The notes beneath the pieces are model-generated. The model ran no database searches and was not told the DNA's origin. It saw nothing but the letters and a program-made list of their open reading frames with translations. 45,466 bases of DNA, taken from a virus. Lineage: Duplodnaviria > Heunggongvirae > Uroviricota > Caudoviricetes. Where the stretch lies: the IMG/VR virus record IMGVR_UViG_2609459834_000005. One strand, written 5' to 3'. The translations under genes and the position numbers were made by a program. Below, in pieces: positions 28,652-28,822 of the stretch. Numbering within the stretch: the stretch's first letter is position 1; the number at the start of each line of letters is the position of its first letter.

Positions 28652-28822
28652 ATGTCAGAACGTAAAGACTCAAAATCACGCCGTAATTATCTCGTTAAAT
28701 GTTCCTGCCCAAACTGCACCCAAGAGTCAGAACACAGTTTTTCAAGAGTACAAAAAGGTGCCCTTTTGATCTGCCCTCATTGCAACAAAGTATTCCAGAC
28801 AAATCTTAAAGCTGTAGCCTGA
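28652..28822 (+). CDS. hypothetical zinc-ribbon protein (56 aa, CxxC-x17-CxxC)
   Basis: MSERKDSKSRRNYLVKCSCPNCTQ...ICPHCNKVF; AGGA upstream. Confidence 0.4.
   Translation: MSERKDSKSRRNYLVKCSCPNCTQESEHSFSRVQKGALLICPHCNKVFQTNLKAVA

What the first reader, a model, noticed from the sequence alone, without database searches (positions are those of the whole stretch)
28652..28822. Small zinc-ribbon ORF between the pinholin and cspB
A 56-aa ORF with CxxC-x17-CxxC spacing sits on the strand opposite the surrounding lysis and csp genes. I do not recall an annotated gene here in Qin; it could be an unannotated small regulator or a moron gene.
Basis: seen in the sequence. Interest (0 to 1): 0.35.

Follow-up and report, generated by a model that had tools for sequence, protein, structure and literature searches.

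The report
Known small zinc-ribbon gene ynfU
The 56-codon reading frame is real, but it is the already annotated and experimentally detected E. coli small-protein gene ynfU (a putative zinc-binding protein of the Qin prophage), so the finding is ordinary apart from the gene's function still being unknown.

Summary
The ORF at 28652..28822 (+) exists as described. It encodes 56 aa with two CPxC knuckles; the spacing is x18, not x17. It is not unannotated. It is ynfU (b4776 in K-12 MG1655), differs from the K-12 gene by one base (N6D), and lies in the same place between essQ and cspB. RefSeq annotates it as 'putative zinc-binding protein YnfU' under every listed match, and 1650 of 5426 complete E. 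coli genomes hold the region. It has its own Pfam (PF23499) and NCBIfam (NF038384) families. It was found by Ribo-RET and confirmed by tagged western blot (Weaver et al.), and detected again by PIRT-seq. The frame is intact in 83 of 85 related loci from about 80 enterobacterial species, with dN/dS about 0.1. The AlphaFold model is a generic zinc ribbon and no structural match is significant. No function is published. What this work adds: in 55 of 78 species loci a cold-shock-domain gene lies within 1.3 kb, across several different flanking contexts, and some of those contexts are chromosomal rather than prophage. My best inference, at low confidence, is a stress or cold-shock accessory protein that binds RNA, the ribosome or a protein partner. 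Novelty: already known. Interest is low.

The parts
28652..28822 (+). ynfU coding sequence (56 codons plus TGA stop); putative zinc-binding small protein YnfU
   Evidence: ORF seen. Coding sequence identical to RefSeq ynfU of strain W2-5 and one base (N6D) from K-12 b4776. Pfam PF23499 scores 107.7 bits and NCBIfam NF038384 scores 79.8 bits. dN/dS is about 0.1.
28641..28647 (+). Shine-Dalgarno region (AGGAAAA), 7 nt upstream of the ATG
   Evidence: CAGGA is conserved in nearly all of 24 upstream regions from different genera (alignment A3).
28619..28624 (+). Candidate -10 element TACTGT (family consensus TATGGT). Inferred, not mapped.
   Evidence: Invariant T, A..., G, T columns at first-sequence positions 188, 189, 192 and 193 of alignment A3. 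This is the conservation pattern expected of a sigma-70 -10 hexamer. No transcription start site data were available here.
28583..28601 (+). Conserved A/T-rich block plus a weak -35-like GAGAAA (consensus AAGCAA), 17 nt upstream of the candidate -10. Inferred.
   Evidence: Conserved columns in alignment A3. The consensus scan instead called TTGAAA(28564)-18-AATAAT(28593), but that -35 is not conserved in other genera.
28888..28901 (.). G+C-rich hairpin CCCGC-CTGA-GCGGG, 66 nt after the ynfU stop. It is a terminator for convergent cspB and probably also ends the ynfU transcript.
   Evidence: Called as a terminator on the - strand. On the + strand it is followed only by TTTGAGATT, so it is weak in that direction. 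The window has a private C at 28887 where all compared relatives have A.
28217..28432 (-). essQ, a holin of the phage 21 S family; the divergent upstream neighbour
   Evidence: Pfam PF04971, E = 4.4e-34. Annotated essQ/essD.
29186..29401 (-). cspB, a cold-shock protein; the convergent downstream neighbour, with its 5' UTR thermoregulator
   Evidence: NCBIfam CspA subfamily. Rfam RF01766 at 29170-29562, 158.8 bits.
29702..29914 (+). cspF, a cold-shock-like protein on the same strand as ynfU; part of the conserved ynfU-cspB-cspF module
   Evidence: NCBIfam CspF, 160.4 bits. A CspF-like gene lies downstream of ynfU in 36 of 78 species loci.

Best explanation
The ORF is ynfU, a known, translated, conserved gene for a 6.4-kDa basic (pI 9.4) protein. 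This identification is shown and is close to certain.

How it is built. It is a stand-alone, monocistronic unit with its own conserved promoter-like element and Shine-Dalgarno sequence (inferred from conservation). It ends at a hairpin shared with convergent cspB. In Qin-type prophages it lies in the AT-rich accessory ('moron') slot between the Q antiterminator gene and the holin gene. It is antisense to the direction of late transcription.

The protein. Four invariant or near-invariant cysteines (C19, C22, C41, C44, in two CPxC knuckles) most likely hold one zinc ion in a small zinc ribbon (inferred from motif and model; not measured). This would present a lysine/arginine-rich N-terminal tail and an invariant S-E-H-S-F ... 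R-V-Q-K-G loop as the binding surface.

Most likely role (inference, roughly 0.3). It is an accessory of the enterobacterial cold-shock and stress gene islets. It would bind RNA or the ribosome, or a cold-shock-domain protein bound to RNA. This rests on its persistent linkage with cspB/cspF-type genes and its basic zinc-ribbon character.

The confidence given below refers to the identification and gene anatomy, not to this functional guess.
For: Identity:
- The window ORF is identical to RefSeq ynfU of strain W2-5 and one base from K-12 b4776, with the same neighbours.
- The 351-base region is found in 1650 of 5426 complete E. coli genomes, and all 30 listed matches are annotated ynfU.
- Pfam PF23499 YnfU scores 2.5e-31, 107.7 bits against a cut-off of 27. 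NCBIfam NF038384 scores 79.8 bits against 36.

Expression:
- Weaver et al. found it by ribosome profiling of stalled initiation complexes. The tagged protein was the most abundant of their newly identified small proteins, and they noted the two CPXC knuckles.
- PIRT-seq detected it again.

Selection:
- The frame is intact in 83 of 85 loci.
- The median pairwise dN/dS is 0.11.
- Third-codon-position entropy is 1.20 against 0.58 and 0.32 at positions 1 and 2.

Fold: the AlphaFold2 model has mean pLDDT 69.9, four short strands and one short helix, as expected of a zinc ribbon.

Context:
- 55 of 78 species loci have a cold-shock-domain gene within 1.3 kb. In 37 it is a convergent CspB-like gene and in 36 a CspF-like gene.
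- YnfN-like, YnfQ/YmcF-like and GnsB genes are also frequent neighbours.
- The flanking contexts differ. They include Qin-type lysis cassettes, a Klebsiella phage with a different holin, an umuDC/integrase island, and housekeeping chromosomal loci in Klebsiella and Raoultella.

Other: the protein is basic, with 10 K+R against 4 D+E. GC dips across the ynfU-cspB region.
Against: - No experiment assigns a function, and the papers read say only 'possible metal binding'.
- Zinc binding has not been measured.
- Structural and profile similarities are all non-significant. The best Foldseek E-value is 0.6, to small zinc proteins bound to archaeal ribosomes. Tim15 scores E = 0.012, L44e 0.028 and PA0128 0.52.
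- The csp linkage is absent in 23 of 78 loci. It is also absent in the most distant family members, which lie beside Usp, DinI or AhpC-type genes.
- Linkage may reflect co-transfer of small AT-rich stress genes rather than a shared mechanism.
- The species loci are not phylogenetically independent.
- No data on cold induction of ynfU were found.
Confidence: 0.9

Rival explanations
1. YnfU is a small regulator that binds a protein. Like most characterised E. coli small proteins, it would bind and modulate one larger protein, for example a chaperone, a polymerase or an enzyme. The zinc ribbon would serve only as a rigid scaffold, and the csp linkage would be incidental.
For: Weaver et al. expect most small proteins to act by binding larger proteins. 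The invariant polar SEHSF loop looks like a specific interface. The weak best PDB sequence hit is Tim15/Zim17, a zinc finger that escorts Hsp70 (E = 0.012). IbpA/B-like small heat-shock genes lie next to ynfU in four loci.
Against: No partner is known. The Tim15/DNL similarity is below the Pfam threshold (13.4 against 27 bits). The C-terminal tail that would carry the DNL motif is not conserved. No gene other than csp recurs as a neighbour.
Confidence: 0.25
2. YnfU, or its antisense transcription, is a prophage device. It would control lysis or late gene expression, for example by damping read-through from the late promoter into the holin gene, or by acting on the holin or endolysin.
For: In E. 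coli, Citrobacter and one Klebsiella phage the gene lies directly upstream of a holin gene and divergent from it, even where the holin is of a different type. It is antisense to the expected late transcript (position relative to Q and S).
Against: In most genera the gene has no lysis genes nearby, and in some it lies among housekeeping genes. Strong purifying selection on the protein is not explained by an antisense-only role. There is no match to anti-phage defence models, and PHROGs gives only weak matches to families of unknown function.
Confidence: 0.07
3. YnfU acts in metal homeostasis, as a zinc (or other metal) buffer, a sensor, or a redox-sensitive cysteine switch.
For: It has four or five cysteines and an invariant His28 and Glu27 in 56 residues. 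One preprint lists ynfU among up-regulated 'iron-metabolism genes', without evidence for that label.
Against: CPxC knuckle pairs are normally structural sites. No metal-regulator binding site or metal-transport neighbour was seen in any locus. The annotation 'zinc-binding' rests on the motif only.
Confidence: 0.05
4. The ORF is a chance reading frame with no product.
For: None beyond its small size.
Against: Published ribosome profiling, a tagged western blot and transposon-reporter data show it is translated. dN/dS is about 0.1 and the frame is conserved in about 80 species.
Confidence: 0.01

Closest known systems
YnfU of E. coli K-12 (b4776; Pfam PF23499; NCBIfam NF038384 'YnfU family zinc-binding protein')
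   Same: 55 of 56 residues are identical. It lies at the same position between essQ and cspB in a Qin-type prophage, with the same start codon and length. It scores far above both family thresholds.
   Different: Only N6D, in the variable N-terminal tail. The D6 allele is the one present in strain W2-5, in the five E. coli phage records that match at 100% (four phages) and in the other Escherichia/Shigella loci compared.
YmcF/YnfQ ('cold shock small protein YmcF', Pfam PF23641)
   Same: It is also a cysteine-rich protein of about 60 aa (CPCC ... CIFC) encoded in the same cold-shock islets. In several Enterobacter, Kluyvera and Citrobacter loci it is the divergent neighbour of ynfU.
   Different: There is no detectable homology: the profile-profile probability is 2.9%. 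The cysteine spacing and conserved motifs differ.
DNL-type zinc finger (Tim15/Zim17/Hep1, Pfam PF05180)
   Same: It is the best, though weak, sequence match among solved structures: C..C...S.H..S....KG..LI.CPHC (E = 0.012).
   Different: The Pfam score of 13.4 bits is below the 27-bit threshold. The D-N-L tail is absent and that region is not conserved in the family. It is not a member.
Small zinc-ribbon proteins bound to ribosomes (eL42/L44e, eS27, archaeal HVO_2753-like proteins)
   Same: They share the size class and two-knuckle ribbon, and they are the top Foldseek and PDB-profile neighbours.
   Different: All matches are non-significant (Foldseek E >= 0.6, TM-score about 0.4). This is a resemblance of a generic fold only.
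PhnA/YjdM N-terminal zinc ribbon (PF08274; PA0128 structure 2akl)
   Same: It is the second-best Pfam match (E = 1.3e-4). Weaver et al. reported the same resemblance by threading.
   Different: The score of 22.4 bits is below the 30.8-bit threshold. YnfU lacks the C-terminal PhnA domain.

Membership tests
YnfU family (PF23499 / NF038384) | Scores above the curated thresholds of the family models over their full length | tested here: met
   Pfam 107.7 bits against 27, profile positions 1-49 of 49. NCBIfam 79.8 bits against 36, positions 1-51 of 52.
YnfU family (PF23499 / NF038384) | Two CPxC knuckles and the conserved SEHSF / RVQKG core | tested here: met
   C19PNC22, S26-E27-H28-S29-F30, R32-V-Q-K-G36 and C41PHC44 are all present. 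The same columns are invariant or nearly invariant in 25-27 homologues.
YnfU family (PF23499 / NF038384) | Orthology with E. coli K-12 b4776 (sequence and synteny) | tested here: met
   One nucleotide difference in 171. The gene order essQ - ynfU - cspB - cspF - ynfS - Q gene is the same as in NC_000913.
YnfU family (PF23499 / NF038384) | Binds zinc | not testable with these tools
   Inferred from the motif only, both here and in the literature.
Zinc-ribbon fold | Two beta-hairpin knuckles that bring four Cys ligands together | tested here: inconclusive
   The AlphaFold2 model has pLDDT 69.9 with strands at 12-16, 25-29, 38-40 and 47-49. This is consistent, but the model has no metal and Foldseek gives no significant match.
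DNL zinc finger (Tim15/Zim17) | Pfam PF05180 score above threshold and a conserved D-N-L motif after the second knuckle | tested here: not met
   13.4 bits against 27. The tail after C44 is variable across the family.
YmcF-like (PF23641) | Profile similarity to the YmcF/YnfQ family | tested here: not met
   hhalign probability 2.9%, with 9 aligned columns.
Phage moron (accessory gene unit in a lambdoid prophage) | Lies between essential phage modules, has its own promoter and terminator, and differs in composition from its neighbours | tested here: met
   It lies between the Q gene and the holin gene, on the opposite strand. It has a conserved promoter-like element and a hairpin terminator. 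GC is 0.34-0.38 against 0.46-0.50. It is present at the same site in phages HannyBb, Tritos, 2H10 and PhiR63_1. Promoter activity itself was not measured.
Anti-phage defence proteins (PADLOC) | Match to any PADLOC model | tested here: not met
   No family at E <= 0.01.

The most novel reading that the evidence does not exclude
YnfU is a dedicated partner of the CspB/CspF-type cold-shock proteins encoded next to it. It would be a zinc knuckle supplied in trans that works with a cold-shock domain on RNA or the ribosome at low temperature. This would be a bacterial two-gene counterpart of the eukaryotic 'cold-shock domain plus zinc knuckle' architecture seen in Lin28 and plant CSD proteins. That comparison comes from general knowledge and was not tested here.
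Probability: 0.12. Interest if true: 0.45.

Novelty: already known. Interest (0 to 1): 0.1.

Why it matters
As a discovery it does not matter much. The gene has been in EcoCyc/RefSeq-type annotation since the 2019 ribosome-profiling study and has curated family models. Its remaining value is that YnfU is one of the better-expressed E. coli small proteins and still has no function. The neighbourhood survey done here gives a concrete, testable lead: look at low temperature and at RNA, ribosome or Csp interactions. In that survey, 55 of 78 species loci have a cold-shock-domain gene within 1.3 kb, across prophage and non-prophage contexts. The survey also shows that the family is not intrinsically a phage gene. 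It belongs to a mobile set of small stress genes that lambdoid prophages have picked up.

Tried and rejected
1. YnfU as a distant paralogue of YmcF/YnfQ, the other Cys-rich small protein of the cold-shock islets. Rejected: hhalign probability is 2.9%.

2. A natural fusion of a cold-shock domain with YnfU, suggested by P0058 (186 aa, containing 'VKWFNADK' joined to 'CSCPNC'). Rejected: its only contig, L089 (963 bp, Logan), is a chimera. Window 29366-29609 is joined to 28696-29395 at a short inverted match, and the product reads through stop codons.

3. Informative domain fusions or distant relatives. The exhaustive profile search found only 40 representatives at E <= 0.001 among 1.84 billion proteins. 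The true relatives are all small stand-alone proteins. The long multi-stretch hits are Cys-rich repeat proteins.

4. Structural neighbours. Foldseek against the PDB gave nothing with E below 0.6.

5. Defence or phage-family annotation. PADLOC gave none. PHROGs gave only weak hits to families of unknown function.

6. An RNA hairpin in the leader (CTGTATA/TATACAG, 28621-28642) as a thermosensor. The fold is not better than shuffles (z = -0.51). The stem is not conserved in other genera, and it would lie partly upstream of the inferred transcription start. Dropped.

7. The promoter called by the consensus scan (TTGAAA 28564 / AATAAT 28593). Its -35 is not conserved across genera, so I prefer the conserved TAnnGT element at 28619-28624. 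Neither has been verified.

8. Literature search for a function, using the terms ynfU, b4776 and ymcF/ynfQ/cold shock. There are only incidental mentions. One is an intergenic ynfU/cspB polymorphism in a silver-nanoparticle evolution line. Another is an unsupported 'iron-metabolism' label.

Full report
**1. The observation**

It has an ATG start and a TGA stop and encodes 56 aa: MSERKDSKSRRNYLVKCSCPNCTQESEHSFSRVQKGALLICPHCNKVFQTNLKAVA.

- The knuckles are C19-P-N-C22 and C41-P-H-C44, with 18 residues between them rather than 17.
- The upstream neighbour is a phage 21 S-type holin gene at 28217..28432 (-), Pfam PF04971.
- The downstream neighbour is cspB at 29186..29401 (-). It has a cspA-type thermoregulator leader, Rfam RF01766.
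- cspF at 29702..29914 is on the same strand as the ORF. The statement 'opposite to the csp genes' therefore holds for cspB only.
- This is the only one of 158 ATG ORFs of 40-100 aa in the window that carries a double CxxC pattern.

**2. What it is**

A megablast of 28560-28910 finds the region in 1650 of 5426 complete E. coli genomes. Every listed match is annotated 'ynfU: putative zinc-binding protein YnfU'.

In K-12 MG1655 the gene is b4776, at 1640805..1640975, inside the cryptic prophage Qin. The order there is essQ - ynfU - cspB - cspF - ynfS - ydfT(Q). The window is about 98.8% identical to K-12 across this region. Its ynfU differs by one base (N6D) and is identical to that of strain W2-5.

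The protein matches the dedicated Pfam family PF23499 'YnfU' at 2.5e-31 and NCBIfam NF038384 'YnfU family zinc-binding protein' at 7.9e-23. Both scores are far above threshold.

Weaver et al. (bioRxiv 10.1101/511675) discovered it by ribosome profiling with stalled initiation complexes. The tagged protein was the most abundant of their new small proteins. They noted the pair of CPXC zinc knuckles and a moderate threading match to PA0128. PIRT-seq (PMC12350097) detected it again.

**3. Is the gene real and under selection?**

A scan of one genome per species found 86 relatives, of which 80 loci were kept, all in Enterobacteriaceae-type genomes. A few have odd MAG labels that are probably contamination.

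- The reading frame, the start codon and the Shine-Dalgarno sequence are conserved. Of the 85 loci read, which include five annotated records fetched earlier, 83 have a full-length intact frame. One is frameshifted and one was recovered only in part.
- The median pairwise dN/dS is 0.11, and variation is concentrated at third codon positions.
- C17 is replaced in two loci, so the four ligands are C19, C22, C41 and C44.
- The invariant core is L14, P20, C22, S26-E27-H28-S29, K35, P42 and C44.

**4. Structure and remote similarity**

The AlphaFold2 model (mean pLDDT 69.9) shows four short strands and one short helix, as in a zinc ribbon. Both termini are disordered.

Foldseek against the PDB gives nothing significant. 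The best E-value is 0.6, and the top entries are small zinc proteins bound to archaeal ribosomes. A profile search of PDB sequences gives only weak hits: Tim15 (a DNL zinc finger) at 0.012, L44e at 0.028 and PA0128 at 0.52. The remaining Pfam matches are generic zinc ribbons below threshold.

An exhaustive profile search of 1.84 billion representative proteins finds only 40 hits at E <= 0.001. The genuine ones are all stand-alone proteins of 50-60 aa, so no informative fusion exists. One apparent Csp-YnfU fusion is a chimeric contig. There is no PADLOC match, and PHROGs gives only weak hits to families of unknown function.

**5. Context**

In the window the gene occupies the AT-rich stretch between the Q gene and the holin gene. 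GC is 0.34-0.38 there against 0.46-0.50 in the flanking genes. This is the classic accessory-gene slot of lambdoid phages.

Phage records:
- Five E. coli phage records (four phages: HannyBb, Tritos, 2H10 and PhiR63_1) carry a protein identical to the window's, and PhiR42_1 carries one at 98%. For HannyBb, the one whose neighbourhood was read, the gene lies at the same site.
- A Klebsiella phage has a 57%-identical copy that is divergent from a different type of holin gene.
- Phage PHB10 has a 61%-identical copy next to cspB- and cspF-like genes near its integrase and umuDC genes.

Species loci:
- Across the species loci of at least 3 kb, 55 of 78 have a cold-shock-domain gene within 1.3 kb.
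- In 37 there is a convergent CspB-like gene, and in 36 a CspF-like gene on the same strand.
- YnfN-like, YnfQ/YmcF-like and GnsB genes, the other members of E. coli's cold-shock islets, are also frequent neighbours.
- In Klebsiella, Raoultella and Atlantibacter the flanks are housekeeping genes: a LysR regulator, acetolactate decarboxylase, a TPP enzyme, a short-chain dehydrogenase, an aldehyde dehydrogenase and an ABC transporter. The family is therefore not intrinsically a phage gene.
- The most distant members, such as the Shimwellia-type proteins, lie beside Usp, DinI or AhpC-type genes with no csp gene nearby.

**6. Expression signals (inferred)**

An alignment of 24 upstream regions shows three conserved features:
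- a conserved CAGGA Shine-Dalgarno sequence;
- a block GTGTA(T/C)(G/T)GT whose invariant T-A-n-n-G-T (window 28619-28624) has the pattern of a -10 hexamer;
- a weak -35-like AAGCAA and an A/T-rich block upstream of that.

The hairpin at 28888-28901 is a good terminator for cspB on the - strand. It is the only plausible stop for ynfU on the + strand. A leader hairpin seen in E. coli is neither conserved nor better than shuffled sequence.

**7. How it most likely works**

Shown: it is a translated, conserved, basic (pI 9.4) small protein with a two-knuckle motif, encoded as an independent unit.

Inferred: one structural zinc ion; a binding surface made of the basic N-terminal tail and the invariant SEHSF/RVQKG loop; and a role connected with the cold-shock and stress gene set it travels with. 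The most plausible form of that role is binding of RNA, the ribosome or a Csp-RNA complex. I put it at about 0.3.

Rivals: a protein-binding regulator (0.25), a prophage lysis or late-transcription device (0.07), metal homeostasis (0.05) and a spurious ORF (0.01). No published function was found.

**8. Verdict**

The interpretation 'unannotated' is wrong, while 'moron gene' is reasonable for the prophage copy. Novelty is 'already known' and interest is low. The only added value is the csp-linkage survey, which gives a testable lead for a protein that has no assigned function.

Noticed in passing
window 26102-26302 (- strand); stop codon at 26174-26176: The ynfQ (YmcF-like cold-shock small protein) gene of this window has a premature stop after ...CIFCK, at codon 39 of the 62-codon annotation, where K-12 and other strains have Ser. 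The best E. coli genome matches to 26000-27000 are 99.9% identical, meaning one mismatch in 1001 bases. That mismatch was not located, so the nonsense change may be private to this sequence.
   Followed up: partly
window 28887: There is a private C where K-12, strain W2-5, phage HannyBb and four other Escherichia/Shigella loci all have A. It lies at the base of the hairpin shared by ynfU and cspB and shortens the A:T extension of the stem.
   Followed up: partly
L016-L033 (Klebsiella, Raoultella), ynfU at 4001-4168: In these genera ynfU, with or without cspB- and cspF-like genes, lies in a housekeeping chromosomal locus. On one side are a LysR regulator, acetolactate decarboxylase and a TPP enzyme (a bud-type operon). 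On the other side are dehydrogenase and transporter genes. No phage genes are nearby. In several Klebsiella loci a cspF-like gene follows ynfU on the same strand only about 180-200 bp downstream, so the two may be co-transcribed.
   Followed up: partly
L030, L032, L036, L065 (Kosakonia, Enterobacter): An IbpA/IbpB-like small heat-shock protein gene (155 aa) lies next to or near ynfU where no csp gene is adjacent. This is another stress-gene neighbour.
   Followed up: no
L046, L060, L070, L071, L080, L083, L085 at about 3680-3865 (-): A YnfQ/YmcF-like gene is the immediate divergent neighbour of ynfU, with an intergenic gap of about 140-320 bp. In many Enterobacter and Kluyvera loci a YnfN-like gene lies beyond it or takes its place. 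In E. coli Qin the lysis cassette sits between these two halves of what is elsewhere one contiguous cold-shock islet.
   Followed up: partly
window 28903-29185, between the shared hairpin and the cspB stop: About 285 nt separate the cspB stop from the strong hairpin terminator, and there is a second, weaker terminator-like site at 29007-28991 (-). A hydrophobic + strand ORF (62 aa here, 79 aa in some strains) overlaps this stretch and is probably spurious. A silver-nanoparticle evolution study reported an intergenic ynfU/cspB polymorphism in this kind of position.
   Followed up: no
window 1430-1628 (-) and 40204-40255 (+): Rfam matches the IS009 RNA (226.7 bits) and the DicF small RNA (76.7 bits). 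A second cspA-type thermoregulator match at 26274-26659 (-) belongs to cspI. These fit a Qin-type prophage region.
   Followed up: no
L003 (phage HannyBb) 4085-6846: The deposited annotation lists about 20 tiny 'hypothetical proteins' of 30-55 aa on one strand between the Q gene and the csp genes. This looks like over-calling of ORFs in a non-coding or RNA-rich region. cspB and cspF are not annotated there although tblastn finds them at 100% identity.
   Followed up: no
L089 (Logan contig SRR24771497_36233) and proteins P0050, P0058: Some database 'YnfU' proteins are artefacts. They are either read through TGA stop codons or come from a chimeric 963-bp contig that joins the cspB leader to ynfU. 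Several 'MAG' hosts of ynfU (Veillonella, Vagococcus, Kocuria, Bacillota) are probably contaminating enterobacterial contigs.
   Followed up: partly
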